Below the pieces are notes generated by a model. The model saw only the letters and a program-made list of their open reading frames with translations. It did no database searches and was not told the origin of the DNA. A DNA stretch of 64,000 nucleotides from Psammoneis japonica (lineage: Eukaryota), in assembly GCA_008632985.1 (NCBI GenBank), contig QPGO01000165.1:62001-126000 (forward strand). The letters are read 5' to 3'. A program made the translations under genes and the position numbers. Below, piece after piece: positions 20,350 through 46,544 of this stretch; the first letter of the stretch is position 1, and the number at the start of each line of letters is the position of its first letter.

Positions 20350-23300
20350 AGTCAGCTCACACCAATGGTCTCCCCTGTTGCTGACTTCTTTTTGATTGTG
20401 CCAACAAATCCAAGCCACAAACCATCCAGCATTGAATCCATTCGTGCCATGCATCCCTCCCTTTCTGAGTTTGTGTGGCTTCTCCAACAGCCTGGCAACA
20501 AAGTGCTCGCATTCAGGACACAGCACTTTGTCCTCTGCACTGATCCTTGTGATGACATTCTGTCCTGCCTCCAGGTTTTTAACAAAATCTTCAATGGCAG
20601 ATCCTCCTTGGGTTGCAGCTGCCACACTTGAAGAAGAAGACGGCAGCATGCGTGGCTTTTTGGCGGCTCCAAAAGTGGTTGTCAGGTTGCAACGACGGTG
20701 GTCGCATTGAAGGCAGTCATTGCAAGGGCAGGCATGCTTCCGATGCAACAACTCGGAGTCATCTGTGCCAGTCCCATGGCTTCCATAGAAAAAATCCCTG
20801 CTGGATCCAGCATGTCCCTTGTTGGTGCTTGCCAATTCTTTGTCGAACCCTCCTTCAGGATGCCAGAGACAGACTCACTTGTTTGGCAAGAATTTGCCCT
20901 CTCCGTTTCCCCTGTGGTGACGGGTCTTGCAGCTTCTGAGAGGCAATGAACAATTGGCAGCCAAGTGACGGACAAGGGCTTGCATTCCTGGGCCATGGTC
21001 ATCACCTGCAGAACGCTGAACATTTCCTTTTAGAACATGAGTTTGCCCATCGCAAACACATTTTCCATGGTTCTCGGGAAAACAAATGTCCCAGAATTCC
21101 ATTCCAGTGCAAGCCAGAAAGGTTTGGCAACCTCGAAATGCCCAGCATCCCTGGCATTGGGCAGCACATCCATCCCTTTGACGATGAAACGCATGAAGCA
21201 AAGGAAATGGTGGTTCTGCAGACCCCACCCAGTCCTGCAATCCATCTGGTGAGTCGCCACAGTCCGTTGCGTCACCTGGCATTCTTCTGCCATTCCAGAA
21301 TGCCTCAGCTTTGCTGTCATCATGAAGCTTTCCATGTTTCAGGAAAGATGCAATGTCTTGCATTGCAGCATGGTTGAATGCAGCACTGCCTTTTTCTTTG
21401 CCCATTGCGAAGAATGCAAAGCTTTTTGCATGCCACCACTTGGTCGATCTTGGCCTTTTCCAGCCGCTTTGCAGTCCATGGGTGCTCTTTTGCAACAGTT
21501 TCCCTGGAGACAGTTTTTGGGTTGAATGAAACATGCACAACATTTGCAATTGTGAGATTCTGGATGAGAGCATGTCAGATCATGTTTCTGTGTTGAGTGC
21601 ATCACCAAAGAGAAGTCACCTGACGTGTGTGCTGCATTCTTGTGTTCCGGAGGTGCGTCATCTAGAACGGCAGGAAGATGCAGACATGCTTGAATTTCCC
21701 TCAACTTTGCTTGCCTGTCCATCTTGACTTGCCAGAAATGCTCTGGCATTCCTCTGCCTTCTCTTTCAGAAAGAACACAAACTTTTTTGAGTGCCCCGAA
21801 CTGGAAGCCATTCTTCTTGCGTGCTGACGCCGTCATCCCCACAGGTTCCATCATCGGCATTTGCAGTCTCTGAACTTGCAGGGCATTTAACTTTAACCCA
21901 GTCTTTCCAGGTGAACATGTCATGGTCATTTCGTCAGGACATGCTCGCACAGTCTTGGTCATGACAATCCTGGTAACATGTCTGTTTCCGTCAGTGCGTG
22001 CTCCTCGCATCCCAAGAACACTGCGTCCCATCCACACTTTTGATGCACTGTTGCAGCTGCATTGGGTCAGTTGTTTCTTGTTTTGCTGCAAGCACCAAGA
22101 GTGCAGTCTCTGTTGAATGTCTTGAAGGGCTCCATCACGTGTTGTTGATTGGCATCAAGAGTGGCACTCCATTTTGATCAAGCTTGTAGAGGTCAAGCTG
22201 AGGCACGTGAGTTGGGGCACAGAGAATGGCGGCCAGCAATGCTTGAGATGACACAGAAAAAGTCCTGTGTGGTGTGCCTGTGCAACACGTTCCAGCACAC
22301 TCATTGCACTGGAAGTTTTCTCCGGCACCCGGCTCCAACCTGGCCACGAGTGAGTGATCATTTGGAAATGGTGCATTGTTGCCATTTCAACCTGCTCGAT
22401 CATGCAGGGCAAGATTCTCTGTCAGAATGGTGCATTTGGGACAGGAGCAGAAGTGCACTCCATCAGGATGCAAGCACTTGCACATGCATGCCTTGAGCAG
22501 CTTTGCTGAACCTTTTGTGCCATTGGGCCGCTTCTCTGTTTTCGTCTTCACGATTTCCTTCCAAATGGGTGACGGTTCCCTTGGATTTTCTGGAGAAGCG
22601 CGGTTCCTGCCAGTGAGTTGGTCAAGCAGCTCGGCGTTTGAAGCAAGGAGACATCTTGCAGGGTGCTTGTCACACATTTGCTGCCCATTGGCATGCAAAC
22701 CAACAGGAGTCAAGAACTCGTGCTTGTTGACGTTGTCAATTTGGGATGCTTCATTGCTGTGGAGCCATTCGGCTGTCATGCCACAAACCTCCATTGACGG
22801 TGGCAACAATGACATGTGAGACTGCTGCGGGTGCTAGAGACTGGTGCAGTTCAAACAGTCCCTGTGGATGCTGCAACATTGACTCACCTCCGTTGATTGC
22901 TGTGATGTGTTGATGAGGCTCCGCCCAAACCCAGCGCCTTGTCCATGTCTTCAGATCCACTCCAAGTGCAAATGCACATTGCAGGTGCCGACGAGTTACC
23001 CCGACAGCTCTTTCCAAAGCCCTGCCAAGCTTCAAATCTCTCATGTCATCGCTTGCGAGTGCAGCAAGTGCCGAGTCCACACAGCTCTTGTCTTCCAACG
23101 TTTTGGTCCTTTGTGTTGACAAAACATGTTGAAGAAATTCTTCAAAGCTGCTTGCAACTCTCTGTTGAGCTTGGTTTCCTTGTCTTCATGAGGAATGCCC
23201 ATTGTTCTGTCAACGGACATGGCTTCACCAGCTTGCCTGGCCTCTCAAACGGCAGGTCTTGACATGAAGCAATGCAGCATTGCTTGGTTCATCTTGCACC

Positions 23301-24506
23301 ACCTTGGCCAAACAGAGTGTCTTCCATTTCTCTTGCAGCATTTCTGGCTGCAATTGCTGCACTTGATGGCAGCATTCCATCATCATCAAAAACGCACTTT
23401 GCTGCAAGCTCGTTGGCTTTCTTGTTGCTGTGAGTCTTTTCCCTGCAGCTGGGCAAATCCCTCTTTGAGTTGGGCGCCTGCTTTCTTCAGCCTGCTGTTT
23501 GCCGCTTCTTTTCCCTGAGAAGAAAGGTTTGAGGAAAATTGTGCAAGACACCAGCGTTAGAGTCAACTTTGGTCAGAGAGAGAGTCGCACATGACATGCC
23601 CCAGTTCACAACATGCCATGTGCTCACCTTGCCTTTTTCAGAAAAGCCGCGTTGGGTCGTTTCTCCAGTGGCGCCGACTGAATGAACTGGTCAAAAGCAC
23701 CTGTGACTTCTTTTCCAGTTGCCCAAAGTTGGTTTCCTTTCATCAATTTTCCCATTGGCCATCAGGTGGTCGTCAATGGTCCACTCGGTCAGGTCAACAG
23801 TGTCATCCTCCAAGAATCTTTGGAGCATGTCTCTCAGAAAGCGGTTCACCAGTGGCACATTGTGGATCCCTTCTGGGTTGATTCAAGCCAAAACATCCAC
23901 CATGACCTCTGATCCATCCCCATCAAGAGCGTCATCCCATTCTTGCAAAATCTGCTCTTGTTCGATTGTGCCACAAACTGTGAAAGTCAACGCCGTCGTC
24001 AACTCTTGCACTTCTTCCAGTGGCAGCCTAAGTGCTGCAGCTCCAACAGCTTCTCCCATGGTCCAATGGAATGGAATCCTTGCAGCTGTTGCCACCTGCT
24101 CTTCACAATCAACTTCAAACTTTGCGGTCTCCCTGGTTGACTCAGAAAGCTTTTTCAACACATCTTGCCACTCAGAAATGACCTCTTGTGAGTCAGATCT
24201 CCTGCCAACTTCTTCCAACTCTTTCAAAACTTCCTTGAATTGCTTGAAAGATTCTTTTGAAAATGACAACGCAGTGTCATGCTGATCACGCTGCCACACT
24301 CCATGTTCTGGCTTTGATGATGTCAGGGGAACTGAGTTCCCTCTGAACTTGCTGCCCGTCACTGAAGCCATCAAAAGATCTGCTTCTGATCTTTTCTTTG
24401 TGGAGTGGTCACACTTGAGTTTCAGTCGCTTGCGCTTCTTGGTGTCAGGTTCAGCATCAAGTTTAGTGCAGCTGTTGCATTTGCCGCAGCATTTGCGGCC
24501 CCCCAT
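20350..24506 (-). pseudogene. Large Sola-like DDD transposase, decayed
   Basis: Motifs in order on the minus strand: GDFS (~21620), RDGCAAQCQG (DGC..QY), FPENHGKCVCDG (HGK..CDG) and RKHACPCNDC..C. N-terminal CGKCNSC...KLKC cluster. Boundaries and TIRs not resolved. Confidence 0.6.
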
Positions 24507-24643
24507 GGTTGATGCTGCATGGGGTCACCCATGAGATTGGCTCGTCAGTTGCCGCACGTAGAAACCATGCTGATGCAACGCAAGTGACATCACAATGATC
24601 TCACACTGTGACAAAAAAGGCCAACAAATGTCTCCATCACCAA

Positions 24644-24730
24644 AGGTGGTGCAAATCCATTTGAAAGTTCAGGTCAGGTCCACTCAGCGAGAGGATCTCA
24701 AATCCAGTCTCAAATGGATTTGCACCACCT
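24644..24730. repeat. Perfect 21-bp inverted repeat with 45-bp spacer
   Basis: aggtggtgcaaatccatttga (24644-24664) and tcaaatggatttgcaccacct (24710-24730). Confidence 0.85.
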
Positions 24731-25159
24731 CCGGTCATGAAGTTAAATGTGTGTGTGCACATCCCCAAAAATGTCACATTTGGTGCAATCAACTGGCCAA
24801 CCTGCCATGTGGGACATCTGCAGTGGCCACTCTTGCTGACAAACTTGAGTCTGCTGTTGTTGGCTTGTTGGGCACACCTTCAACAACCAGGCAGCCATGT
24901 GTTGCTTCTGCACAGATGTGCACGTTCTTGATCTTTGCACATCTCTTGACATCCATGTGCGGTGTGCCAAAACTTCCCTCCAATGTCTGTCCGATGTCAA
25001 ATGGGAGTGAGGAGGAGTTTTGCACCAAAAAATCTTGACGGAACACGGAACAAACACAGCGGCATGAAACACCATGGCCATCAACACTCAAACTTTTTGG
25101 GTGTCATTAAAGTGTCCAGAACACTTGCATCCATCAACTGGAAAGCAAATGCAGCCTTC

Positions 25160-25700
25160 ATGTTAAAACCAGGTGATGCAACAAAAGCTGTGGAAAAGTC
25201 CAGCTTGTCTCTGTTTCTTGATGTGGATGGCATCCTTGACACATCCCTCATGGCCGGCAGTGCCACGGTTCATCCCAAACTGATCAAACGGCTCACCTTG
25301 ATTGTGACAGAAACAAAATGCAGTTTGGTTGTGTCGTTGACATGGAGATTGGATGGAAAACACCTCAACATTCTTGCAAGCAAACTCGCAAAGGTTGGGC
25401 TTTGCAAAAAAAGCATTGTTGGCTCCGCTCCAACTGTGGAACCTGTCTGAAAGTTGTGACAAGACGGGCATCATTGTGCCATTCAAGAAGCTGTGGAATT
25501 GCAGTGATGTCAAGAAATCCTGGCATGGCTTCAAGGGCACTGCACAAAAGACCACCCATGGGTTGTCTTAGATGATTTAAACTTGTCAAAGGTTGAGGAC
25601 GTGACTGTGATTGAAAGACTGCAAGGTCACACAGTTAAAGTGCACCCGGAGGAGGATCAACTGAGAAGAGTGTGCAAGAGGCGGTTCAAACACTCAGAAA
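25160..25700 (+). pseudogene. HAD-superfamily (Swiss Army Knife, HAD_SAK_2-like) phosphatase pseudogene
   Basis: LFLDVDGIL...LIVTETKCSLVVSLTWRL...IVGSAP and, after a frameshift, WVVLDDLNL. Confidence 0.7.
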
Positions 25701-28700
25701 TGACACGTGTGCTTGCAAGGTTGCTGGATCAGCTGATGCATTGCAACAAGGATGGCGGATGAAAGTGGGAAAAACTGGTGGAAGAGCACACATCCACACT
25801 CAAACCATCACAAGATTCAGAAGTTCTTAAAACCATGTTGTCAAATGTTTTGTCAGCAACCAGGAAGCATTCAAACTGTGTGGATTTGGACACAGAGAAT
25901 GATTTGAATTTAGTGTGGTCAATGTGCAGCCGCATGCTTGATGTGCTTTGCACCTGTTCCAGAATCTGATGGATTCCATGTTTTGTTTTCTAACGGTGAT
26001 CTTTCATGTCCTTAAAATGGAGGATGAGTTGAAGCCAAGTTGGAAATGAGTCACCACTTGATTGACCAAGTTCTCCCACCAGGCAGCGTGGACCATTTCG
26101 CCAAATCACTTCCACCCGGGACTCCATCTTGACAGCCATTCTTGTTGTGACCATCAAGCAATGGCAGTGTCACTGAAGAGCTCCCATGCAGGAGTTGATC
26201 ATGGTCTTTAATTGCTGCAGAAGATGGCACCCAACACCCTTTGATTGTTTTGTCCACTTGTCCCTCCATTGCTTTCTTGCTCAAGGCAGAGGTGCACGAC
26301 CACTCACTCACTTCTCAAACACACCTCACAAGATGAGGGCAGCTGGGGCAGGGCATTTGCACTGTGTTGCTTTTGGCAGTGATCCATGCAAGAGCCAACA
26401 AGACACTTGACTTTGCAGGGTTTGAATTGTTGCTGGAAATTGCTCAACCAATTGACTCCATCAAGCTTGGTCTCAATTGTCCTGAGCACCTTGTTGATGG
26501 CAACGAGAACAAGATGAGCGTCAATCTGATTCACTGGACCATCAAACCAGTGTGCGCAGAAAAATCTGCAGTGGTTGGCTCTTCGCCAAGAGGTCCAGTG
26601 GATGTGGATGTGCAAAATGGCGTTTTACAATTTTGTTCCAACTTGGCATCTCTTGAGCATCATGAGTTGGGCATGGGAGTGTGGGCTCAGATGCCTTGCC
26701 ACAGCTCAGAAATGTTTGCGGTGCAGCAGGCACTTTGTTTGCAGGACAGGTCCCAGCCAGTTTCATCAATCTCCAAACTGTTGTGGTTGAATCCGACACA
26801 AGTCACCTGGTTGTTTCCATGAGCAAATTGCCAGCAAACATGGTGAATTTTGCAGACTGTGGAACATCGAACAATCTCTTCTTGGGGAACAATGTCAACA
26901 TCACCTTGGTGGGCAAGGACGCCTTCTTTGTGACTGATGGGACAATCACAACAGGAACTGCATTGGGGAGACACAACCTGCTGACTGTGTTGGAATCCAT
27001 CACTCAACTTGTTGTTGCTGGAGAAAAGAATTGCATCACAACAAGCCATCATCATGAGAGCAACCCATGCACAAACATTGATTTCTCGTCATGACAGATC
27101 AGCTCCTTTGAGATCACACCAGAAGGACTCAAAACAGCTCCAATCATGCACCCAATCTTGGGTGTCATTTCACATGATGAAATGAACCTGTCATCATCCT
27201 TGTGTCAAGCAAACAAGGACAACAAGGATGATGACTTGGCAAGTGCAGCAAATTGACACTTGAACAAGTTCTTTCTTCTCACCACGTCAAGTGTTGTGGT
27301 TTGTCTGATTGGAGTGCAATTGTTTCAGGGGAGCAACGAAATGCAGACTTCTTGTTTCTTTCTCTCTGTGTGTGGTGGGGCTGGGGTTGAAACAACTCCT
27401 TGGCCAAATGGGCCACCAGAAGCTTCATGCTTGCAGAATGGGAAACAAACATTCTATCCTGGCAGACATGAGTCCGACTTGTTGCACCAAAAGGGACAAT
27501 TGCACTGCAATCATGATGAAGAAACAAACACCCAGAAAGAACTTGGAGGGAGTTGTCTTGCATTGTGTCCCAACCAGCTGCACTGGCAAACACACCAAAG
27601 GCCCAGACCTGCTTCTGAAATGGCTGTTGTCAGCCTCCTTGTTTGCAGCCACTTTTCAACAATTTAGCACCAACAGATGCAGCAGAGTTGAAGATTTTTG
27701 CAGCTTTTTAATGGACTGATGGCCCAGCTGCTCGCATTTGGTTGCTCTTGCATCTTCTCATGAGAGGAGGCCAGGCACCCCTCTTCCAGCCTTGTGTCTT
27801 TTTTCTGAATCTTTGAAGCAACTCATCGTTGTCAAAAGCAAAAAAGGCAGTGCTCAGCATGTGTGCTGCTTGGCCCTTGCAATCCACTGTGCTGTGTGAA
27901 AGTTGTGGGTGCGCACCATTCACAACTGCTGACAATGCACTCAATCAAAACTTGCAGTGCCAAACCCTCCTTGCAAAATTTCAAACTGCTTGCCATCACT
28001 CAATTGGTGCTGCTGAAAATGCTGATGAGAAATGACACATGTGGAGCACAAGAATGGTGTCATTTCTGAGCATCGCAGTTGGAGCTGTTGCCACTGAAAA
28101 ATGACATCAAAGTGTGCAGCTGGGAAGAGAGATGCTGTTCACAAACTGGCATTTTAGAAAGTGAGGTGGTGCCAAAAAATGGCTAAAAAAGCATTTGTTG
28201 CCATGAAGAGTGGCACTTTGTGGGTTTTTGATGCCAGGCATGAAAACGTGACAGCCCAGCAGCATTTCAAAGTCCCACCCAGAGCTGGCGCAAGCTTGTT
28301 TGACAAGTGGGGGGCAGCCCAACCTTGCTCACCACACTTCAGTTGTTTGTCATTGCCAACAGAATGGAAACAGAGTGGGTGCACCACGCCATGTGCAGGT
28401 CTGCCCTGGGGGCTGACACTCCACTCTGAATTTTCCTTTTTCCATGCTTTTGCAATCTGTGGATGGACACAGTGGTGTGCTGGAGAGCACACATTGAGAA
28501 AAACTCTCCAGGAAAATGGTGCATGCACTGTGACATGAATTTCAGCACGTTCTCCTCCACATTCCCAGCTCCAAGGAGCTCCTGGGTGGCTGGTGCTGAA
28601 GTCAGTGCACACAGATTTGTCCAGCTGAGTGCCCTCAAAAGAGTGCAAGCTCCCTTGGTGCAGCTGTGCTCTCTCTTTGTCTTGCATCCAGTTGAAGCTG

Positions 28701-30959
28701 GTTGAATTTCCCAGGCTTTTTGCAATCTCTGCAGGGAGTTTGTGCTTTTCTGCTGGCCTCCCATGCTGCCTTCTTTTGGCCCAATTCTCTGGCTCCATGT
28801 CTTTTTTGCATTTGTCTCCTGTGCAGAACACTGCAGTGACCATTTTCTTGGGCAGCATGCTTTGAACTGCTCAATCTTCTCACTCCACTGGGCATCATGC
28901 TGCAGAGCCTGTGCATCACTTGCTGGATGGGCAACACTCATGCACAGCACCACTGCCACAGGTGTGGCCACTTCAAAAAGAGTCACATTGTAGGCTCAGC
29001 TCAGCATTCCCTCATGCCAACCTTTTGCTTGAGCACAACAATGCCAGACAACCAGCTGCAGTCAATTCCTGTGGCTGGCTGTCATCTTTCTCCACTGCAG
29101 GTTTTCTCAGCAAGGGCACTTGACCATGTTCATTGCTGTGCTGTGTTCATGCACATGCATGGTGGTGTCTTTCTGGGTTGCAGATGAGGACAAAAGAGAC
29201 AACAAGGGATTTTGTTGAATGCATGGCCAACGCGCATGACTTGAGGTGAGCCACATGATGCCAACAACGAGGTGATCTTTTTGGGAAAAACCAGACAAAA
29301 AGAAAACCATGAAAATCTTTTTGGCAAAGAACAACACAACAAGAGCAAAATGGAGAAGACCCTTGTTGACAAACACAAGAGAACAATCAAATTTGAAGGA
29401 GTTGTCAAAAGTGCTGAGCTGCACAGAAAATTGGCCTCTTGCATGATGGATTGCTCATACCTGGGGCTGGAACCAGGCAAATGTGACATTTTGATCCCAA
29501 ACACCACTGCTTTTTTCAATGCTCCCCAACTGTTTTTCCATTGACAGCAAAGCATGAAACAACACAAGGCACAGGAGCAGCACATGGATGACATGAGGGA
29601 GAGTGTCATCAGAGGCAGCATTTGAAGGCTTTGAATGTAAAAAAAATAAGATGTCACAGTCAGAGGCAAAACAAATTGCCATCACACATTTTTTATGCAC
29701 CAAGTGTGGCATTTTTCATGGCATCATGCAGAGTCAGCACCAGCTCTGCCACAGGTGGAAATGCAACAAATGGCATTGTGGCATTTGCATGGATGACTGC
29801 CCTGAAAGGAGCGACAAATGTCCAAACATGCTGCCACACCAAGAAGAAGTTTTCTGCTGCATCACAAGTGAGAGCATCGCTGGATGAAAAAAGTGTGAGT
29901 CCTGGAGTCATTGTGGCAAGACAAAAAAGATGGGCAGTCATGCAAAAGAAGGAACAAGCCACACAAGAGCTTCACAGTTTCTGCATCACATCTCTGGACA
30001 AACTGGTGGTGACTTCACAAAAAAGACAGAGTCATTGTCAGCATCATTTCTGTGTGACACGCAACAAGCCACAGACCGTGCTGCTGTGGCTGCCTGTCTT
30101 GAACAACAAAGCAGCACAGGCTTTGGTTTCTGCAAGCTCTTTTGAAATGGGTCAAGTGGCTGATCAAGCCACTGCAGCATTGTCTCACAAAATGCTCTAG
30201 CTCATGTGGGTGCCATGCACCACAACAATCCAGAAGCTCTCTTGATGCACTCAACTCATCTCATCTGCCATTGCATGAAAAGAAGTTCATGCAAACTCCT
30301 CTGGTGTGGCTGTGACTTGCACCACTCTTGAAACAAGGCACATCAACATGGTTTTGCAAGCATCATCAAAATTCAATGGACTCCAAGAAAAGAAGCAACA
30401 GAATGAAGCACCCAAGCTCTTGCATGCACAGTTGTCAAACACTTGTGGAAATGGGCAGAGTGATCAATGTCAAGGACTTTTGCCATGAACAACATGCACG
30501 CTGAATGTCATGGATGAGTTGGATGAAGAGGCTACAAAAACAAACTCTGGCCAAGTGTCAAGCACAGATTGACAACACCATCCTGAGGATGTTTGGGAAA
30601 GCTCAAGCAGTGAGAAAAGCAACATCCCCCAATGTCTCAGAAAATCCAACTGTTGTTGACAATGCTGTTCCTCAAGATGACTCAGAAATGTCAAGTCTTG
30701 AGAACCCTGTTCACTTCTTCAAGGTGCTTCAGAAAAGCCAAGCAGGGAGAGTGTCATTCCTCAAGACCTCATTGTGGAAAAGCCAAGCCTGACAGATCAT
30801 GTGGATGCCAACTGTCCATGGGTTTTGTTTTTGTTGGCAAGCGACTCTCTTGTCAAAGTCTTGCAGTCTTGTTGATTGTGGCTGTGTGGCAACATCCAAA
30901 ACTTTTGTTTTTTTGTTTTGTGTGTGCACCCACAGTGCCCACAGGCTGTTGCTCTTGCG

Positions 30960-31330
30960 CTGCACATGCAAGACAAAAAGGGTCCTTGTCATCAGCTTTC
31001 CAGTTGACACATTGTCTACCCAAGTCTGTGTGAGCAGCTCAATGTGGAGGAGCCACCAAGGACCAGCTGCTCTTTGCTGGTGAAGTGGGGGGCACTCATG
31101 AGCTTTGTGAAGAAACGGGCATCAATGTGAGACATGACTTGACTCAGTGGGAGCTGGCAGCATTGTGGTTGATGTTGCAAGCCAAGGATGCAAATCTTTT
31201 AACTTGCCAGTTGGGTTGCAAACTCTGCTTTCTGTTGAATGTGAAAGATGATGACCCCACCATTGGCAAGTGAAGTGATGTCATCACTGTTGGTCAGACC
31301 AAAGGCATCGATTTAAAGTTGCACCCATCC
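30960..31330 (+). pseudogene. Possible Nudix hydrolase remnant
   Basis: HELCEETGINV resembles the Nudix box RELxEETG; the rest is heavily decayed. Confidence 0.35.
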
Positions 31331-33277
31331 AAGGAGAACCCGGGTTTTGCCATTGCTCCTGACTCAGAGGTTGCTGTGTTCAAGTGATTCAAAAACACAG
31401 CAGTGGGTCCAGCTCAGAAGCGCTTGTGAAGTCCTCTGCAACCAACTGTTGTCAGCAGAGCAAATGAAGAAAGAGTCAAGAAAAAGAAAACCCAGTGCCA
31501 AAGCAGTGGTGGCTGAAAGCACAGCTGCTGACTGTGACAAAAAGAGTTGAGATTTGTGTGTGGCAGATATGCAGATGATCTGCTGCCTCCATCAAAAGAA
31601 AAGCTTGCTCCAATGTTGTTTTTGCAGGTGAGCCAATGTGGCATGACACTGCACATCCTGAGAGGCAATGCAAGATGCACCCAGCAAAGTGGACAAAAGA
31701 GAGTTTGTCCCCACTGTGCTTCTTGAGGTGGAGCACAGCAGCTGACTCACACCCCAGGCAAAAAAAAATTGACTGGGTCACTTGCTTTCCTGCCAGTCTT
31801 CTTTTAACCAAGCAGCTCCTGATTTTCACAAAGTGAGGAGCAAATGAGATGCCCAATCTGGACAAGTCCGTGCCTCCCCCACTTTAACTCTTTGTTCACC
31901 ATGGTGACACATGCATGCTTTTTTTTCTGTGCCACACAATGCACACTCAGTGGGAATCATTCAAAAATGTTGCAAGAAACACAATTGACATTTGCACAAG
32001 GAAAAATGTCAAATCGTGCAGAAATGCACACAGTGTCATGCTGGAGAGTGATTGGAGCTGCTGGCTTTGCGGGAACTCAATTGAAATGTCGCTGTGTCTG
32101 ATCAAAGGCATTTTGATTTACATGGTGAAGAGCAACACCTTTGATCAGATGACATTTCAATTGATTTCCCGAGGAGTTGACATTCATGCACAGACAGGCA
32201 GGTGGACTGACAACAATTGTTTCTGGTGCTTTTCTGCACAATTTTTTCTGTGCAATGACTCTGAGAGCCGAGTGACTCATGTTGCAACAAAAAGACAACC
32301 AACGTGGCACGTCACCACTCAGAGTCATTGTGATCAACAGCACCCTGATGCCATGTGGAGTGATTGCCAACATGGTGAGGTGTGCCATGATGGCTTGGAT
32401 TGGTTTGTTGTCATGTTGCTGTCCTGTCTTCACTTTTTGACTTGCCGGCTGTTGCATCGGCATTTTTTGCACTGTGACATGCCTGACCGACCAGCACCAA
32501 CAGAATCGGTGTTGTCATTTTTGTCATCTGCAGGACAGAGTCTGGTGGAATGTCAAACAAATGGGTGAGCACACATCACAACAGCACTGTTCTGTTGCAT
32601 CAGATTGTCCTTTTTTGCACCTCACATTCCCTCAGCTGACCCTTGCTTTTTGTGCTGCTGTTTTTTGCTTTTCAGCATGAAGCTGCGGTCATTTGTGGCG
32701 CGGGCATGATGGACATGGACGTTGGCAAGCACATCTCTGTGCTCACCTTCAGCTCCCTTGACACCACTGTGGAGGATGTTGGTGTGGAGTGCTGGGTGGC
32801 TCCTGCAGCCGCCAGCGTGCCTGCAGTGCTGTCAAAAATTTGTGGCTGTTTCACCCGTTGCTTCTTGCACTGGTCAGATCAAAGAAAATGAGACAAGGTC
32901 GCTTGCACCCACACTCAAGAGATGAGCCCTTTGCCAATCATCTGCTGAAAACTGTTTTCTCTCTTGTTCATTTGTGCAAGCTCACAGGAACCAGGCAACA
33001 ATCCTTTTGCTGCATCGCAATCATCTCAGGGTGCCTTGACAAGGAAGTTGCAGCAAGAGAGATGTCTGGCCAGGTGGGTGAGGCTTTCCCAGCCAACAAG
33101 AACAAAAGTGTCTGGCAAAACAAGACTGTCAATGCAACTCAAGGATGCTGCTGTCAACGCATCTAAATCACATGTTGAGTGCAACAAAGTGCAACAACCA
33201 CTGGTTTCACTGGTGATGTGCTTTTGTCTGTCATGCATCATGCATGCACGGCTGCTCTCTTCTCCAGCTTGGATTGA

Positions 33278-34650
33278 GACCCCGTCCAAACTGGATCGTA
33301 CTTGCGCACTTTCGTACTTGAGCATGGCCTAAAAAAGGCGCTTTGCGACTTTTTTAGTAAAAAAGGCGCTTTGCGACTTTTTTAGGGTTATGTGCCCTAT
33401 GATTCTACAATATTTAGGCCATACGATCTCGCGTCAGGAACAGAGACCACCGGCCCTGTCTGTTCCTTCGCGACATCATACTACGCGCAGAATAAACGGT
33501 TGTCAGAGGAATAAACAGTTGTCAGATGAAGCATGGACAGACCGTAAAGTAAGGGAACTTTCACGTAGATTCTACGAGACAAACGGGTGATAGACAGACA
33601 AATGCGACAGAAGAGTCGATTTCTGTCGTCCCCGTGCTGTGAGCCAAATGGTGTATCAGTTAAATTTATTACGTTTATATTGTTATGCATGTATGCCTCA
33701 AATTAGTGTGGATGTTGTTTTCATCCCCACATGGACGCCATTGTCGCTTCTCGTGTTGCGTCGCACTTTTGTGAGCATCTGTCGCATTTTTCGATTCAAC
33801 CTCATCTTTTTTTGAAATTTTACGAAATTGTTACATAATTATTTTACTATAAAAACGCTAGGAAAACTGGTGTCTGACACCTGTTTATTCCGTCCGTAGC
33901 ATACCCCTGACATCATACCCCCGCTCGCACGAAAAACAGCATCACGACGAATGAAGATGACGGCCCATAGCGGCATCAAAGTTTTACCTTATGATGATAA
34001 AAGTAACCCCATTAGAACCGCCATATTTTACTTAGTGTGTAGGTGTGGTTTCTTGTTTTGTTCAGTGAAATAACGTTAGACTTACGGGGTGATTTCAGAA
34101 ACTTTTCATTTGAAAGTTTCTGCACATTCTTCTCGGGCCATATCGACCCTTACTCTAAAGTCACACCACATACAAATAAACCCATTAAATCCTTCTTATC
34201 TAAATTAGTCGATAAGATTATTGTTGGGCCTAACAGATCTAGTTTAGCCACCTTATGCATTGACTTGGTATGATGCACAGACAGAAAAAATTCCTTTGAA
34301 TACAAAAGGTCTATTTCAGCAACAAGTGCACAATATTTTAACATTTTCTTGCCGTAACTTATCATATCCACTTCATATTATCGATTGGTGTTACTTATAA
34401 AGTGGTAAAATCGAAAGAAGCTGTCAAAAACAACCACACATCGCCATGGCGACTTGCATCGCATCCGCTCGTTACGCGCTTCAGTGATGTCAGAAATGAG
34501 TAACTCGACTAATTTTTTGGGTATGATAGTACCAATGTACGTAAGTACGATGCAGTTTGGACACGACTCCCTTTTATGGCTCGTGACGTCATGAAGCAGG
34601 CCATACTCAAGTACGATAGTGCGCAAGTACGATCCAGTTTGGACGGGGTC
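33278..34650. mobile_element. Young non-autonomous TIR DNA transposon (PIF/Harbinger-like), 1373 bp, 53-bp TIRs, 3-bp TSD TGA
   Basis: gaccccgtccaaactggatcgtacttgcgcact.tcgtacttgag.atggcct at both ends (2 mismatches). tga flanks both sides (33275-77, 34651-53). AT-rich interior with normal TA; no transposase ORF. Confidence 0.92.
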
Positions 34651-37400
34651 TGAATGGGAATGGTCTCATTTTGGAAGGCAGTGCCATGTCTGCTGCCATT
34701 CCCTCCAGCTTGCACTGCAAAAAATTCAGTGAGTGACAAATGACGATGATGCAACAGACAACAACACAACTCACTTTGATGCCAAAACAAAGCTTGGCAG
34801 CCTGGCTGCTGGCTGCATCTTTTTTGCCCCACACCCACAATCAAAGCCTCTCTCAAACACAGCGCCTGTTTCCAAGTGTTCTTTCTGAACAATGAAGAGC
34901 GATTTGTTGTCATTGCACATCCTCGCACTTCCCACAGCATCAGTGCTGGTGTTTGAATCAAAGCAACAAGCAATGCTGCAGCATGGCGACACCATCAGCG
35001 GCGCTGTCAATGAACTCTGATGAACAAATGAGCACAAAAACAGAAAATGATGGGCGACCATGCAACACCAAGTCTTTTTTGCTGCTTGCCTCCCACCCAT
35101 GATTTGACACTGGAGTTTTTCAAAAACAGCACCCAACTCAAAATGCTCTTTCCAAATGAAGAGCAATGTTTCATCAGCGTGCATGCTCTGTGACAACGGC
35201 AAAGACAATGCTGCAGCGGCTCTTGGTGTCACCAACCTGTGGTGTGTCGTGGCAAAAAAAATGTTGTGTGCGTTCAACCGCACAAAAAAAATCCACTCCA
35301 ATCCATTCCAGCAAACAAAGAGTCAACCAGTGCATGGGCTCAAAGCGCTGGATCAGATGTTGTGTCATTTGTCATTTTCTTCATGCACTCCGTCCATCTC
35401 TGTGGCCATCGGTCGGGCACGGGCTCCCCAGTTCATTTTGCCTGGAGCAGATGGGTCATGAGCCACCACCCACACATCAGCGCCATGCAGGGGTGCACAC
35501 AACACACTTCCACACTGCACAGTGCAGAGTTGGTGCAGCGCGCATTGAAGGGAGACACCATGGCAGAAGGTGCCAAGTGGAGTGTCAACAAGTGTTGGCT
35601 CAAAGCAAGTGGAGTGTTGGCTCAAAGCAGTTCAATGTGTTTTCAGTTGATTTGTTGGATCACTTTTTCCAAATGCTGGGCCCCCGCTCATTTTGTTGGG
35701 GCAATTCCCCATTTCATTGAAAATCCCCCCCCCCCCCCCCCAAACCTTCAAACCTGCCCGCATTGGCATCGGCGCCAATGTGGTGTGTTGTGAAAAAAAT
35801 GTGCGCCCGCATGACCGCGCAAAAAAATCTGCAGTGATCCATTGTGGCAAACAAAGAATCAAGAAACAGTCAACTTCAAACCAGTGAAATGGTTTCCAAA
35901 GACAATGCAGAACAGCAGTGGACAGAATTGCATCACCAAATGTGACAAAGAGCAAGCATGGCATCAAGGTCAACTTGAGTGCCGACTTGGAACAAGCATG
36001 TGACACATGGCTTGCCTTTGGGTTCCAGGCTAATTGTGCGCACAACCCTGCAATGCAAATGTGCTATGTCAATGAGTGCTTCTTTGCACTGACAACAAAG
36101 GAGTTGTTTTGATCTCATTGTGTCCAACAACCTTGTCAACTGCCTTTCTCACATCCGCTTGACATGATGTTGCAGATCTTTTGATGCTTTGCATCTTTTT
36201 TCGATTTTTCATGCACAGGGCTCCCCCCGTCTCCATTCAGAATCATTGCCACAATTGTGACACCATGGCGGCCAAGAACAAATTCATCAAGAATGCACCA
36301 TCGCCCTGTCCATTTGCTGTCATCCTCTTTCTGGTGCTGTGCTTTTGTGACATTCCCATTTCTGACAGAGTCTTTGCCGTCACTCATCACCTGCATGTCG
36401 TCCGGCAAAACAAGCCAACAAACCCAACAGAGGACTGCAATTTGAGCCCAATGAGGAAAGGGGACGGCACCAAGGATTCTTTTGACATTTGCATTGGTTG
36501 TTGTGCTGCAGTGGGGGTGCTGTGACCTTTGGGTCTTCTCATGTGTGCGGCCTGTCTGCAACACACGCAACAAGATCACAACTCAGCTGCAGCTGAAAAG
36601 GCAGCTGCTGCCACTGCAGCTCCGCATCTCTTTTTGTTGCTGTCTCAGATCACAATGGAACATGTTGTTGGATGTTTAGATTGTCGTGGGTGCATTCAGT
36701 GCTTGGTGCCGATTGGCTTTGGTGTGTGCCGGCAAGTGGCTTTGCTGCGATGGACGACAGTGGCCCACAAACAGTTTTTGAAACATCGAAATGCAAAGGT
36801 GGTTCAACTCAGGTTGGTTCTGGCAGTCCTCAATGCCATCCTGTGGACCTGCAAAACATTTGTCTTTCTGCTGCTTTGCATGATGCCAAACTGCCTGGAC
36901 CAGAAAAAGCATCAGGTCCCTTCTGCAGAATGGAAGAGAGAACTGTTTCCTCTTGCAAAGCCAGACAAAACAGACTGGAGAAACATTGCCATCTCCATCC
37001 CATTCATTGCATTCAAGTGGGCCCTGTGTGAGGCTTGGATCTGAGGCAAGCTCTTTCTTGAGATGACACAATTCACCCTTGGAAACTCGAGCCAAAGGTT
37101 GTTGCATTTGTCATCAACTTGGTGCTTCAAAAGAAGAGCTCATTTCCAGACAATGGAGAAGGGTGGACTTGCTTTTCACAGTCTCTTTTCTTTGCTCTGG
37201 CACAAAATTGCAAGCCAAAGAGCATCGCCTCCAATTGACTGTCCTCACTTTGGGCAATTGTTGTTGTGCAGCACGGCACAAGTCCATCACGTCCGTCTGT
37301 TGAGTGCAACCAACACACATCATCATGGGGAGCCAAGATGTCGTTCACACAAAAACCCGAAAACATCCCACAGCTCAAAGAACACATTGAGAACACTGCA

Positions 37401-38890
37401 ATGTTGATGAACAAGAAAAGAGAAAGGATGGAACTTGTCAAAATCCAGGAGGTCAAAGGCTTTGGGAATGCTGTTGTTGCCCAGACAGCTTTGATTTCAG
37501 GCACTTTAGGGCTGGAAGTCTTTCAAGAACAGGCTTTGATTGTCTTCCCTCCTCACGACTGCACAGTCTCACCACTGTGGGGACGATCAAGCAGAGTGCT
37601 GCATGAGTGAAGCTGGCCAGACTGTTTGCACTTTTTGGAGAAACCCGAGGATGTCCCAGAAAAGGTTTTGTCCTTTTGTGTTGACATGAAATGCACTGAC
37701 GCTTGTCGAGCACAAGAGCTTGCATCTGAGTGCGTTGAATCTCAGGAATGTGCCAAGCACTTCACTCATCTTTTCATGGTGATCAAATTCAATGCTGTGG
37801 CCGTTCAACCAGTCAATGCTGACGGCGGTGGGCCCAGATGCTGCAAGGGGCATGGTCTCTTTGAAGTCGCATGTTGAATGGCACACTCATGTGGCCCCAA
37901 CTGTGTCTGGTTTAGTTTGCAAGATGGTTGCTCTAAGACAGTCCGAGTGATTGCACCCATCCAGTCTGGAGAGATGCTTGCTGTTAACTGCCTTGAGCAG
38001 AAGCACTTGGAAAAGCCCATGTTCCTCCATTGAGCCAAGCTGAAACGCACTGAGAACTTTGACTGCAGATGTGACAGATGCGTGTCATTGACTGGAGACG
38101 ACTCCCAGTGCTTGCGCTGTCACAACAAGCATTGCAAAGTGCACCATCTGGTGCAACAAGTTGACATTGGTGATCCTCCAGATCTGACTGCTTGTGGTGT
38201 GTGTGGTGAAACAGCACCTGATGCTTTTCAAAAATGGGTGCTGGAAAATGAAGAAGAGGTGAGCCAAAAGATTGATTGTGTGGATCGGGTTGCTGACTTG
38301 GGCATGCCCACAGACGCCGCACATTCCATCCAATCACTCAAGCCTCCATGTGAACATCATGGGGTCACTCTCCCAACACACCAAGCACAGGTTGATCTCT
38401 GCTTGAAACTCAATCAACTTTCAAAGGCTGTCATGGCACAATGCAAGTGGAGCAACTGTCGTTTGCGCATTCACGGAGAAAATTGTCTTGACGAACAAAC
38501 TGGATTTGGGCACAAATGCATGGGTGACTTGCTGGTTTGAGATGGAGACCAGCAGGCTGCCCGGAACGCATGTCAAAAAGCAGTGCAGGCCCTTCAAGTT
38601 TCTTGGGGAGGATCCAATGAGCCACACACGCAATGTGCCATGAAAATCAGTGCAAAAGCATCGCATCACGTCTTCGCCAACAGAATTGTCAGCAAAGTGC
38701 AGTCTCTGTGGCATCTGAGCAACAAAGAAGTGCAGTCGTTGCGGAAACACAGTGTGTTGCAACAGGGACCACCAGCTGGTTCATTGGAAGGTGCACAAGA
38801 AGTTCTGCACCAAGACATCTTGATCGATCAAGCCTCTCCTCCCCAATTTCCCAGGTTTTGCGACATTTCTTCATTCTTTCCCAAATCGTA
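37401..38890 (+). pseudogene. SMYD-type SET-domain lysine methyltransferase pseudogene
   Basis: EVKGFGNAVVA; HGLFEVAC*MAHSCGPNCVW (R.NHSC.PN); VRVIAPIQSGEMLAVNC (GEEL..Y); post-SET FDCRCDRC. Confidence 0.8.
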
Positions 38891-39299
38891 AAAATTGTGC
38901 AAACGTTGCACAGGAGATTCAATCACCAGCCAGTTTGGTCTCAGTGCTGTTTTCAAAGTCTTTCTGGCACATCCGTGCTCGCTCCAGGTCCTTGAGCTGC
39001 ACAGCATTCTCCACAGATTGATGACACCAAGAAAACTGAGCTTTTGTTGCGCTGTCGCGACATTGCGGCTTTGATTGCATCATTCCCGTGATGTGTTCAT
39101 GCATGCCAAAGATGTTCCCCATGGACTGTCACAAGAATGCTTCCGAATGACAAGTCTCTCCCGCTAAAGGAACGACCTGCAACACAGTTGCTTTGCCCAC
39201 AGTTGCCCAATTGCAAAGGATCTTTGTCTGCCTGGTGCAAAGTTGTCCCAGTCACAGTGCACGGTCTCCTGTGGGACCATCAGCATTCTTCCACTGTGA

Positions 39300-40001: not shown

Positions 40002-40128
40002 TGTGACAAAAACACATGCATCGGTCATGTCAAACCTGCGTGACCCTGCAAATGTGCATTTCTTAGAAGATCTGAAGACAGAGCAAGAGTGCCAAACCAG
40101 CACATGAAGACCAGTGCAGAGTCTACGA
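40002..40128 (+). repeat. Copia-1 5' LTR (3'-truncated by a deletion into gag)
   Basis: Matches 45346-45473. Confidence 0.85.
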
Positions 40129-46340: not shown

Positions 46341-46544
46341 ACACAGTTCTTCTTCTCGTTCTTGTCTTGCCAGATTTTTGAGCTTTTCTGCCAGTGTGAC
46401 TGTGCTGTTGCTGCAGCTGTGATCACAGAAATTTCTGCAGCACTCTGAAATCTGTGATTGTTAAAACCCCAGATTGCCATCCTGAGCTGGTGTTGCCTGG
46501 CCTCTTTTGGACAAAGAAATGCAGTGAATTGAGGCTGGAAGCAG

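What the first reader, a model, noticed from the sequence alone, without database searches (positions are those of the whole stretch)
24800..33277. Surviving TAs are mostly YTAR (TTAA/TTAG/CTAA/CTAG): the preferred target looks like 5'-TAY-3'
Seen: of roughly 30 residual TAs in this 8.5 kb (eye count), about two-thirds are pyrimidine-TA-purine (e.g. 25108, 25163, 25569, 25578, 25827, 25991, 28154, 30198, 31314), and RTAY is very rare. YTAR is the one class with no TAY on either strand. AA runs are not depleted. Known: TadA acts on UAC(G) and TadA-derived editors favour YAC/TA; Pol eta favours WA, including AA. Inference: an enzyme-like context preference closer to a TadA-type deaminase than to Pol eta.
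Basis: partly seen in the sequence, partly recalled or inferred. Interest (0 to 1): 0.78.

Follow-up and report, generated by a model that had tools for sequence, protein, structure and literature searches.

The report
Flank-dependent TA erasure in diatom DNA
In dead transposon and pseudogene DNA of a diatom-like genome nearly every TA has been mutated to TG or CA, and the few TAs left sit mostly in pyrimidine-TA-purine contexts because TAs flanked the other way are erased faster, which gives a first sequence footprint for a barely known DNA-editing process.

Summary
Region 24800-33277 holds 31 TAs: 20 YTAR, 9 mixed, 2 RTAY. None of 1000 dinucleotide-preserving shuffles reached 20 YTAR. All TA-depleted DNA of the window shows the same bias: 128 YTAR and 9 RTAY of 215. 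Undepleted DNA does not: 86 and 83 of 349.

The cause is TA-specific transition hypermutation of chromosomal DNA. The two LTRs of a young copia element differ at 16 columns: 13 at TA-type sites, 3 at CpG, 0 elsewhere.

Sister-copy comparisons show that loss depends on the flanks. About 43% of YTAR copies are lost, 67% of mixed and 89% of RTAY (55 sites, Spearman p 2.6e-4). TAs kept in both copies are 6 YTAR, 3 mixed and 0 RTAY.

The order by 3' neighbour of A is T > C > G > A. An outer A (TANA) also marks survivors.

The TadA attribution is not supported: TAT is lost at least as much as TAC, and TACG is not under-represented. The data cannot separate a single-strand TAY reading from a duplex RTAY reading.

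The closest precedent is TpA hypermutation in Bigelowiella natans (2026 preprint), which reports no flank data. Two earlier notes of this scan (e1-7622905, e1-7549747) already report TpA erasure in this genome. The flank rule is new.

The parts
24800..33272 (.). The finding's block of TA- and CG-depleted DNA. It has 31 TAs, TA observed/expected 0.05, CG 0.17. Residual TAs are 20 YTAR, 9 mixed, 2 RTAY.
24950..25447 (+). Frame-broken gene remnant (HAD_SAK_2 domain, E 2e-7) inside the depleted block.
1..6000 (.). Depleted block with milder CpG loss (TA o/e 0.10, CG 0.65). Residual TAs are 21 YTAR, 15 mixed, 1 RTAY. The in-frame ORFs 2641-5733 have 1 Tyr in 1029 residues.
11001..24799 (.). Depleted DNA (TA o/e 0.06-0.09) with residual TAs 42 YTAR, 29 mixed, 2 RTAY. 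It holds a chlorophyll a/b-binding remnant at 16718-17122 on the minus strand.
33273..34655 (.). Undepleted 1.38-kb element with 58-base terminal inverted repeats, inserted into depleted DNA (TA o/e 0.83, CG 1.18). It serves as an internal control and marks the end of the finding's block.
34656..40001 (.). Depleted DNA (TA o/e 0.03) with 10 TAs, of which 8 are YTAR and 0 RTAY. It holds a DUF7733 remnant at 36526-37041.
40002..45474 (+). Old Ty1/copia element, fully TA-erased (TA o/e 0.04, CG 0.24). Its LTRs at 40002-40130 and 45346-45474 are 88% identical. The RVT_2 region 43878-44597 has 0 Tyr in 240 residues.
45475..54542 (.). Depleted DNA with a degenerate tandem array (about 46.5-52.3 kb) and a pseudogene paralogue (53.6-54.5 kb). 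Residual TAs are 25 YTAR, 16 mixed, 3 RTAY.
54543..61657 (+). Young, very high-copy Ty1/copia element (TA o/e 0.27, CG 0.93), partly TA-erased. Residual TAs in the internal part are 18 YTAR, 45 mixed, 21 RTAY, against a baseline of 12% / 51% / 36% in intact relatives.
54543..54816 (+). 5' LTR of the young copia element.
61384..61657 (+). 3' LTR of the young copia element. Against the 5' LTR there are 5 sites of TA versus TG/CA, 4 sites of TG versus CA, 3 CpG-type differences and 0 others.
61658..64000 (.). Depleted DNA (TA o/e 0.03). All 5 residual TAs are YTAR.
6625..8430 (+). Intact MRS2-like Mg2+ transporter ORF (TA o/e 0.44, 16 Tyr). It is an undepleted host-gene control and places the window among diatoms.
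9523..10950 (+). Intact BTB-domain ORF. This is undepleted control DNA, and the intergenic stretch 8431-9522 is also undepleted (TA o/e 0.61).

Best explanation
The window comes from a diatom-type nuclear genome. About three quarters of it is old repeat, transposon and pseudogene DNA that has undergone TA-specific transition hypermutation: TA becomes TG or CA, hitting the A of either strand, on chromosomal DNA after integration.

The residual TAs are mostly survivors. They are biased to Y-TA-R because the erasing activity works faster when a purine lies 5' of the T and a pyrimidine lies 3' of the A. Each favourable flank raises the rate about 2.5- to 3-fold. RTAY therefore disappears first and YTAR last. 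By 3' neighbour of the A the order of loss is T > C > G > A.

Shown: the TA specificity, the DNA-level timing after insertion, and the dependence of loss on flanks.

Inferred: that a sequence-reading enzyme does this. The simplest candidate is a DNA adenine deaminase (A to inosine, read as G) directed at silenced or repeated DNA. A thymine-directed route is equally compatible with the sequence data. Whether the flanks are read on one strand (TAY) or on the duplex (RTAY) remains open.
For: 1. TA specificity and timing.
- The young copia LTR pair (274 bases) differs at 16 columns: 5 sites of TA versus TG/CA, 4 sites of TG versus CA (8 columns), 3 CpG-type and 0 others.
- The metagenome pair L034/L036 (1722 aligned bases) has TA/TA 5, TA versus TG/CA 25, TG versus CA 20, CpG-type 8 of 105 sites, and 26 other differences.
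- Seven control pairs of related copia elements keep most of their TAs, for example 176 TA/TA against 17 changed and 0 TG-versus-CA in L019/L023.
- At 35 conserved Tyr-codon TA sites the window's copia has TA 19, TG 6, CA 7 and other 3. The 18 intact relatives keep TA at 22-32 of their 25-37 sites.
- Pseudogene remnants that are not transposons are erased too, and long ORFs there hold 0-1 Tyr.

2. Loss depends on the flanks.
- In L034/L036, counts of intact / single loss / double loss are 2/14/3 for YTAR, 3/9/10 for mixed and 0/2/7 for RTAY. Fisher p is 0.003-0.009, or 0.027 after discounting 4 possible gains.
- Over four pairs and 55 sites, the counts by number of protective inner flanks are 0/2/7 (none), 3/10/11 (one) and 6/13/3 (two). 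Spearman rho is -0.47, p 2.6e-4.
- TAs kept in both copies are 6 YTAR, 3 mixed and 0 RTAY of 9. Two of them are shared by old repeat copies, which new creation cannot explain.
- At Tyr sites in the window's copia, 4 of 17 YTAY sites are lost against 8 of 14 RTAY sites (p 0.075). Adding L014 gives 10 of 30 against 17 of 28 (p 0.064).
- The young copia's survivors (18/45/21) are shifted from the baseline of six intact relatives (161/672/476), p 0.018.
- The bias is already extreme in the younger depleted blocks (CG o/e 0.4 or more), where RTAY is 1 of 84. In older blocks it is 8 of 121.

3. Survivor classes scale multiplicatively: observed over expected is 1.86 for YTAR, 0.74 for mixed and 0.24 for RTAY. 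That is what independent hits from the two sides of a decaying site would give.

4. A de novo process with the same TpA to TpG/CpA signature was measured in mutation-accumulation lines of Bigelowiella natans (bioRxiv 10.64898/2026.01.13.699255; abstract, Results and Discussion read).
Against: - Numbers are small. The Tyr-site flank effect has p 0.06-0.075 and the young-copia shift p 0.008-0.018.
- The largest pair, L034/L036, comes from an unidentified metagenome organism, not from the window.
- Single differences (TA versus TG/CA) cannot be polarised from two copies, so a few may be gains.
- The direction tests disagree:
  - LTR single losses fit the TAY model 4 to 1.
  - L034/L036 single losses fit it 5 to 4.
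  - Tyr sites in YTAY context give TG 10 against CA 17, which goes against it.
  - The bulk product asymmetry is 1.40 in depleted DNA, but 1.34 in the host-gene stretch.
- The strong excess of A two bases 3' of the TA among survivors (230 against 140 expected, counting both strands) is not reproduced as a loss effect in the pairs (rho -0.13, not significant). Part of the survivor motif may therefore have another origin.
- No enzyme, no modified base and no de novo events were observed here.
Confidence: 0.7

Rival explanations
1. Creation bias at steady state. Erasure is blind to context, and the TAs seen today are mostly new ones made by ordinary C-to-T changes that prefer a 5' pyrimidine (YCA to YTA, and TGR to TAR on the other strand). 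A sunlight-type dipyrimidine bias would be one example.
For: - The depleted DNA holds about 9,550 TG+CA precursors in 43 kb against 172 TAs, so even a low back-mutation rate could supply many of them.
- The two-route logic predicts YTAR > mixed > RTAY.
- The excess of A at +2 among survivors is not explained by the loss data.
- The RTAY share rises from 1 of 84 to 8 of 121 with block age, which suggests that some re-creation does occur.
Against: - Loss itself is flank-dependent in sister copies.
- TAs shared by both copies of hypermutated pairs are 6 YTAR, 3 mixed and 0 RTAY. These cannot be independent new creations.
- An additive two-route creation model predicts a relative level of about 1.35 for the mixed classes. 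The observed level is 0.70 (my arithmetic).
- The bias is strongest in blocks with the least CpG decay.
- In L034/L036 only 14 background transitions were seen in 1722 bases. By my estimate that allows only about 3-4 of the 25 single differences to be gains.
Confidence: 0.12
2. The chemistry acts on thymine, not adenine. T of TpA is modified (for example oxidised to 5-hydroxymethyluracil or otherwise altered) and is then read as C. The flank rule would then be R-T-A on the modified strand.
For: TA is its own complement, so every count here fits T-to-C after a 5' purine exactly as well as A-to-G before a 3' pyrimidine. Nothing in the sequence favours adenine.
Against: No direct evidence either way. 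The only experimental precedent discusses an adenosine-deaminase candidate, without proof. That thymine-modifying enzymes exist in other protists is my recollection and comes from no call.
Confidence: 0.25
3. The flank effect reflects local DNA structure rather than base-specific recognition by an enzyme pocket. TA steps at the junction of a T-run and an A-run (TTTAAA-like) would be poor substrates for any base-flipping activity.
For: - Survivors are enriched for A at +1 (1.88x) and +2 (2.05x), with the mirror T enrichment upstream.
- The commonest survivor hexamers are GTTAAA, TTTACA, TTTAGA and TTTAAA.
- The two pair sites with both T at -2 and A at +2 are intact in both copies.
- TG and CA products are about equal, 32 to 31 at Tyr sites summed over four copies. 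That fits a duplex-level effect.
Against: - The outer-flank effect on loss is not significant in the 55 paired sites.
- All-AT contexts behave in opposite ways: ATAT was seen once against 8.1 expected, TTAA 38 times against 17.7. Simple duplex stability is therefore not the determinant.
Confidence: 0.2
4. Artefact. TA and CG are present in the DNA but carry modified bases that were miscalled as TG or CA during sequencing or assembly, with residual TAs where calling succeeded.
For: A random choice between TG and CA at a palindromic modified site would also produce TG-versus-CA differences between repeat copies.
Against: - k-mer contigs of run X1, at word depths of about 45-66 per contig, hold 76% of the sampled words of the finding region. 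They match unique depleted flanks with 0 to 8 differing letters, for example 463 bases with 0. X1 may be the source data, so this is not independent support.
- Two contigs from other metagenome assemblies show the same signature.
- ORFs in depleted DNA are frame-broken and free of Tyr, and CpG decay varies between blocks independently of TA loss. Real, aged sequence explains this more simply.
Confidence: 0.03
5. Selection keeps functional TAs such as TAA/TAG stop codons or A-rich signals, and this produces the TAR / YTA bias.
For: YTAR carries TAR on both strands, and TAAA-like survivors resemble A-rich signals.
Against: - There are 215 residual TAs, about one per 224 bases and spaced like a Poisson process. 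That is far too many for gene ends.
- The surrounding ORFs are dead: 0-1 Tyr and broken frames.
- The same bias appears in non-coding LTRs.
Confidence: 0.02

Closest known systems
TpA-specific hypermutation of integrated giant-virus and virophage DNA in the chlorarachniophyte Bigelowiella natans (Mettrop et al., bioRxiv 10.64898/2026.01.13.699255; abstract, Results and Discussion read)
   Same: - Almost exclusively A-to-G and T-to-C changes, all on TpA, giving TpG and CpA.
- Confined to particular foreign or repeat-type DNA while the rest of the genome is ordinary.
- Long-term trace of TpA depletion with CpA+TpG enrichment.
- An adenosine deaminase is proposed there but not proven.
   Different: - The host here is a stramenopile (diatom-like), not a rhizarian.
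- Depletion is far deeper: TA observed/expected is 0.01-0.12 over most of 64 kb, against 0.45 for the viral region there.
- The targets here are LTR retrotransposons, old repeats and pseudogenes.
- The main text of the preprint has no word on flanks, context or tri-/tetranucleotides.
Repeat-induced point mutation (RIP) of ascomycete fungi
   Same: Both are DNA-level transition hypermutation centred on a dinucleotide. Both disable transposons and duplicated sequences after integration and leave dinucleotide-skewed blocks beside normal genes.
   Different: - RIP runs in the opposite direction: C-to-T, mostly at CpA, which creates TpA. Here TpA is destroyed and CpA/TpG are created.
- Dependence on repeats and on a sexual stage is not shown here. 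I could show only that the affected DNA has paralogues.
TadA / ADAT2-type adenosine deaminases and TadA-derived adenine base editors
   Same: An A-to-I change would give the A-to-G outcome seen here.
   Different: - A preference for 3' C, or for UACG, is not seen: TAT is lost at least as much as TAC, and TACG is not under-represented.
- Amphioxus ADAT2 prefers GAA on DNA, and that paper describes evolved TadA editors as broad in context (PMC10354150, passages read).
- No deaminase gene could be sought because no genome is held.
ADAR editing of double-stranded RNA
   Same: A-to-G outcome with a preferred 5' U.
   Different: - ADAR acts on RNA and favours a 3' G (recalled). Here a 3' G is among the protected contexts.
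- Non-transposon DNA is affected and LTRs have diverged after integration.

Membership tests
TpA hypermutation of foreign/repeat DNA (Bigelowiella-type) | Changes are almost only A-to-G / T-to-C transitions. | tested here: met
   All 16 differing columns of the young LTR pair are transitions. In L034/L036, 53 of the 79 difference sites are TA- or CpG-type transition sites, against 14 other transitions and 12 transversions.
TpA hypermutation of foreign/repeat DNA (Bigelowiella-type) | The changes fall on TpA and yield TpG or CpA. | tested here: met
   In the young LTR pair, 13 of 16 differing columns are at TA-type sites. L034/L036 has 25 TA-versus-TG/CA sites and 20 TG-versus-CA sites, with only 5 TA/TA left. 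At conserved Tyr-codon TAs the window's copia has TG 6 and CA 7 of 35 sites.
TpA hypermutation of foreign/repeat DNA (Bigelowiella-type) | It is regionally confined, with neighbouring host genes normal. | tested here: met
   TA o/e is 0.01-0.12 in the depleted blocks. It is 0.44-0.61 in the MRS2-BTB gene stretch and 0.83 in the inserted TIR element.
TpA hypermutation of foreign/repeat DNA (Bigelowiella-type) | Long-term trace: TpA depletion coupled to CpA+TpG enrichment. | tested here: met
   TG/CA o/e is 1.7-1.9 where TA o/e is below 0.12.
TpA hypermutation of foreign/repeat DNA (Bigelowiella-type) | A de novo rate orders of magnitude above background, measured in real time. | not testable with these tools
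   Only a relative estimate from sister copies is possible. By my arithmetic, the TA loss rate in L034/L036 is about 27 times the CpG rate and about 120 times the rate at other sites.
TadA/ADAT-type deaminase footprint | Requirement for 5' U/T next to the target A. | tested here: met
   Only TA is lost. AA is not depleted and CA is enriched.
TadA/ADAT-type deaminase footprint | Preference for 3' C (UAC, best UACG). | tested here: not met
   Survivor observed/expected by 3' neighbour is A 1.88, G 1.19, C 0.67, T 0.24. TACG was seen 15 times against 5.8 expected, counting both strands. Caveat: TACG expectation is confounded by uneven CpG decay between blocks.
TadA/ADAT-type deaminase footprint | A deaminase of this family is encoded and expressed in the organism. 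| not testable with these tools
   No whole genome is held for this window.
Pol eta (WA-motif) mutagenesis | A mutated at both TA and AA, with transversions as well as transitions. | tested here: not met
   AA/TT o/e is 1.1-1.36 in depleted DNA. The young LTR pair has 0 transversions among its 16 differing columns.
Fungal RIP | C-to-T at CpA, which creates TpA. | tested here: not met
   The direction is the reverse: TpA is lost and CpA/TpG are gained.
ADAR-type RNA editing carried into DNA by retrotransposition | RNA-stage, single-strand A-to-G with 3' G favoured, limited to retroelements. | tested here: not met
   Both products, TG and CA, occur about equally: 32 to 31 at Tyr sites over four copies. 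LTRs differ from each other. Non-retroelement remnants are erased too. A 3' G is a protected context.

The most novel reading that the evidence does not exclude
Diatoms carry a 'reverse-RIP' genome defence. Its editing enzyme would read the duplex tetranucleotide R-T-A-Y, with protection by T-run/A-run junctions, and convert either A of TpA in silenced repeat DNA. The flank footprint measured here would be the first specificity signature of that enzyme. The same TpA chemistry occurs in a rhizarian alga, so the system would be either ancient among SAR eukaryotes or horizontally spread, and its catalyst would be a natural DNA adenine editor with a defined motif.
Probability: 0.3. Interest if true: 0.85.

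Novelty: new member of a known kind. Interest (0 to 1): 0.62.

Why it matters
TpA-directed hypermutation of foreign DNA has so far been reported from a single 2026 preprint on one unrelated alga, and its enzyme is unknown. The present data add three things.

- The same process has reshaped most of a 64-kb stretch of a diatom-type genome, so it is neither an oddity of one lineage nor limited to viral inserts.
- The process has a measurable flank rule: RTAY is lost fastest and YTAR slowest, with the order T > C > G > A by 3' neighbour. This gives a concrete fingerprint against which candidate deaminases or thymine-modifying enzymes can be tested in vitro.
- The rule lets other genomes be scanned for the same footprint.

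A natural enzyme that edits A:T to G:C in DNA at a defined motif would also interest base-editing work.

Tried and rejected
- **Whole genome:** none is held. Transposon copy-versus-consensus rates across the genome and a search for deaminase genes were therefore impossible.
- **Rfam:** no family matched the window.
- **Sequencing runs:** no RNA holder was listed.
- **Laying run contigs:** the young copia is very high copy, but the per-site table of other letters was cut (1109 rows not shown). Per-context loss among genomic copies could not be read. The run may also be the window's own source.
- **Protein search for same-genome copia copies:** the best of 1980 hits is only 70% identical, so none were found. 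Among the 120 hits listed, only 1 looked Tyr-poor.
- **Old versus young copia in the window:** no nucleotide similarity at the BLAST settings used, so they could not be aligned.
- **Direction test (which flank goes with TG and which with CA):** inconsistent between data sets and left open.
- **Strand-coordinated runs:** in L034 the series of 26 products has 14 runs against about 13.9 expected (my count), so no clustering. The 5' LTR shows TG TG TG CA CA CA, but with n = 6 this is not significant.
- **Outer-flank (+2/-2) effect on loss:** not significant in 55 paired sites.
- **Young copia apparently lacking the YTAR bias:** I first read this as evidence against a loss bias. I dropped that reading when intact relatives showed a baseline of only 12% YTAR.
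- **Pfam scan:** 147 of the 178 ORFs of 110 residues or more were scanned. The 31 left out lie in the undepleted gene stretch and the young copia. Only a few remnants were found.
- **Literature:** searches for a diatom report of TA erasure or for flank data found only the Bigelowiella preprint. A search for TadA context preference under 'YAC' returned only yeast-artificial-chromosome hits.
- **Earlier notes of this scan:** a look-up for flank context found none.


Full report
**What the window is.**
- The window carries an intact MRS2-like Mg2+ transporter ORF (6625-8430) and a BTB ORF (9523-10950).
- The transporter's best relatives are 57% identical. The named ones are diatoms, and one top hit carries the taxid of Asterionellopsis glacialis. 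I therefore treat the source as a diatom-type stramenopile.
- No whole genome is held and no Rfam family matches.

**Composition.**
- Per-kb dinucleotide ratios split the window into two kinds of DNA.
- The stretches 6-11 kb, 33.3-34.7 kb and 54.5-61.7 kb are ordinary or half-ordinary: TA observed/expected 0.3-0.8 and CG about 1.
- The rest has TA 0.01-0.12, CG 0.08-0.77 and TG/CA 1.6-1.9. AA/TT is unchanged at 1.1-1.36.
- The finding's region lies wholly in the depleted kind.

**The observation.**
- One search lists all 31 TAs of 24800-33277: YTAR 20 (TTAA alone 12), YTAY 6, RTAR 3, RTAY 2.
- The Markov expectation is 9.9 / 15.3 / 5.8, with p 4.8e-4.
- None of 1000 dinucleotide-preserving shuffles reached 20 YTAR. 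RTAY at 2 or fewer occurred in 60 of 1000 shuffles, so in this region alone the rarity of RTAY is not significant.
- Over all depleted DNA there are 215 TAs, with YTAR 128 (shuffle mean 67.7) and RTAY 9 (shuffle mean 41.2). No shuffle was as extreme in either direction.
- Less depleted DNA shows no bias: 86 / 180 / 83 of 349.
- Relative to that DNA, the density of RTAY contexts has fallen to about 2-5% and that of YTAR contexts to about 20-50% (my arithmetic).
- The residual TAs are independent of one another and spaced like a Poisson process.

**What erased the TAs.**
- A self-comparison found the LTRs of a Ty1/copia element (54543-61657; RVT_2).
- The two 274-base LTRs differ at 16 columns, all transitions: 5 sites with TA in one copy and TG or CA in the other, 4 sites with TG in one and CA in the other, 3 CpG-type differences and nothing else.
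- A TG-versus-CA site is most simply an ancestral TA hit on different strands in the two copies. By my estimate from the 3 CpG-type differences at 22 CpG sites, double hits at CpG are expected at well under 1 site.
- At least 13 of 22 TA copies were therefore lost, against 3 of 44 CpG copies. TA loss is much faster than CpG decay and acts on chromosomal DNA.
- At 35 TA sites conserved in 18 intact relatives (Tyr codons), this element has TA 19, TG 6, CA 7 and other 3. The relatives keep TA at 22-32 of their 25-37 sites.
- The erased DNA also holds an older copia (40002-45474, LTRs 88% identical, 0 Tyr in its RT) and remnants of ordinary genes: chlorophyll a/b-binding, HAD, DUF7733 and an XPG-like ORF set with 1 Tyr in 1029 residues.
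- Contigs of run X1 show that the depleted flanks have diverged paralogues and that the young copia is very high copy.
- A 1.38-kb element with terminal inverted repeats sits inside the depleted DNA with normal TA content. The intergenic DNA between the two host genes is also normal. The process is therefore targeted, not genome-wide.

**Survivors or newcomers?** The flank bias could come from biased loss or from biased re-creation of TA, for example C-to-T after a pyrimidine. Four lines favour biased loss.
- *An independent hypermutated pair.* A scan of metagenome contigs with the copia protein gave 49 related loci. Most have normal TA content. L034 and L036 are 94.5% identical copies with TA o/e 0.27 and 0.13 and CG about 0.8. 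They show TA/TA 5, TA versus TG/CA 25 and TG versus CA 20. Seven control pairs keep their TAs. By class, intact / single loss / double loss is 2/14/3 for YTAR, 3/9/10 for mixed and 0/2/7 for RTAY. Fisher p is 0.003-0.009, or 0.027 after discounting 4 possible gains.
- *All pairs pooled.* Pooling that pair with three pairs from the window gives 55 sites with identical flanks. Loss falls with the number of protective inner flanks (Spearman -0.47, p 2.6e-4). About 89%, 67% and 43% of copies are lost with none, one and two protective flanks (my arithmetic).
- *TAs kept in both copies.* These are 6 YTAR, 3 mixed and 0 RTAY. Two are shared by old repeat copies. They cannot be independent new creations.
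- *The young copia and block age.* The young element first seemed to lack the bias (18/45/21). Its intact relatives, however, start from 12% YTAR and 36% RTAY (161/672/476 in six relatives), so it is in fact shifted (p 0.018). At its Tyr sites, RTAY is lost at 8 of 14 and YTAY at 4 of 17 (p 0.075). The bias is also strongest in blocks with the least CpG decay, where RTAY is 1 of 84 against 8 of 121 in older blocks. That is the reverse of what a bias from slow re-creation would give.

Some re-creation surely occurs, and I give the pure creation model about 0.12.

**The finer rule.**
- Counting both strands, survivor observed/expected by the base 3' of the A is A 1.88, G 1.19, C 0.67 and T 0.24. 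Loss therefore ranks T > C > G > A.
- The class ratios 1.86 / 0.74 / 0.24 are multiplicative, as expected if each side contributes independently to decay. Each flank is worth about 2.5- to 3-fold.
- Survivors also show a strong excess of A two bases 3' of the TA, with the mirror T upstream. After second-order correction this is 230 against 140, counting both strands, p 5e-10. TACT was seen 0 times against 16.5 expected.
- The typical survivors are TTTAAA-like. This outer effect is not significant as a loss effect in the 55 paired sites, and I leave it unexplained.

**One strand or the duplex?**
- If the enzyme reads T-A-Y on one strand, a YTAY site should mostly become YTGY and an RTAR site RCAR.
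- LTR single losses fit this 4 to 1 and L034/L036 single losses 5 to 4.
- Tyr sites in YTAY context give TG 10 against CA 17. Summed over four copies, the products are TG 32 and CA 31.
- The bulk product ratio (YTGY+RCAR over YCAY+RTGR) is 1.40 in depleted DNA against 1.15 in less depleted DNA. It is already 1.34 in the host-gene stretch and is not raised in L034/L036.
- The question stays open. A duplex R-T-A-Y reading fits at least as well as TAY.
- I saw no strand-coordinated runs: 14 runs against 13.9 expected in L034 (my count).

**Comparison with what is known.**
- Literature searches found one close precedent. In mutation-accumulation lines of Bigelowiella natans, two integrated viral regions mutate about 1000-fold faster, almost only A-to-G and T-to-C, and always on TpA. 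An ADAT2-like candidate is discussed there (bioRxiv 10.64898/2026.01.13.699255; abstract, Results and Discussion read).
- Its main text does not mention flanks, context or tri-/tetranucleotides.
- I found no report for diatoms in those searches.
- The TadA attribution fails its one testable feature, a 3' C or UACG preference.
- Amphioxus ADAT2 prefers GAA on DNA, and that paper calls evolved TadA editors broad in context (PMC10354150, passages read).
- Pol eta is excluded by intact AA and the absence of transversions.
- RIP runs in the opposite direction.
- ADAR-type RNA editing cannot explain LTR divergence, erased non-retroelement DNA or the protection by 3' G.

**Artefact check.**
- Contigs of run X1 hold 76% of the sampled words of the finding region. 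They match unique depleted flanks almost exactly, at word depths of about 45-66.
- The run may be the window's own source, so this is weak support. The same signature in two contigs from other assemblies is independent.

**Earlier notes of this scan.** Notes e1-7622905 and e1-7549747 describe TpA erasure on other pieces of this genome and name the same preprint. I had reached that reading through before seeing them. Neither they nor any other note treats the flank context.

**Verdict.**
- The flank preference is real and mainly a property of loss.
- Its assignment to a TadA-type enzyme is not supported, and the strand logic is unresolved.
- The thing itself is a new member, in diatoms, of the TpA-hypermutation kind. 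The flank rule is a new and testable property.

Noticed in passing
window 33273-34655: A 1.38-kb element bounded by 58-base terminal inverted repeats (55 of 58 identical) sits inside erased DNA. Its TA (o/e 0.83) and CG (o/e 1.18) are normal. It is either a very recent insertion or a sequence the erasing process does not target.
   Followed up: partly
window 54535/61658: Contigs of runs X1 and X2 join 54535 directly to 61658, skipping 7122 bases with 7 shared letters. This is an empty-site form without the copia element. It is either the other allele or a paralogue of the flanking repeat.
   Followed up: no
window 53977-54535 and 61658-61854: A very high-depth contig of run X2 matches the copia's insertion flank at about 85-89% identity. 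Its loose ends have normal TA and CG content. At 6 sites it has TA where the window has TG or CA, and at 5 sites CG. The window copy therefore looks like the erased paralogue of an abundant, unerased sequence.
   Followed up: partly
window about 46500-52350: A degenerate tandem or dispersed repeat array lies inside erased DNA, with copies 66-79% identical and one pair (48976-49082 / 49302-49408) 94% identical.
   Followed up: partly
window, all depleted blocks: Survivor TAs carry a strong excess of A two bases downstream and T two bases upstream (TTTAAA-, TTTAGA- and TTTACA-like). TACT is absent, with 0 seen against 16.5 expected. The paired-copy loss data do not explain this.
   Followed up: partly
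L034 and L036 (metagenome contigs); also L014: Copia elements with the same TA-erasure signature (TA o/e 0.13-0.31, CG 0.74-0.80) occur in metagenome assemblies. Most of the other 46 related loci are normal. Only 1 of 120 related proteins in the large protein collection looked Tyr-poor. The process therefore seems confined to a few organisms.
   Followed up: partly
window 3064-3153 versus 6713-6801 (inverted): A 90-base stretch of the erased block is about 90-93% identical, in inverted orientation, to the 5' part of the intact MRS2-like ORF.
   Followed up: no
window 8695-8830 / 8838-8971: A tandem duplication of about 135 bases (92-93% identical) lies in the undepleted intergenic DNA. Its differences are ordinary: 4 transversions, 3 other transitions, 1 TA-type and 1 CpG-type.
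   Followed up: partly
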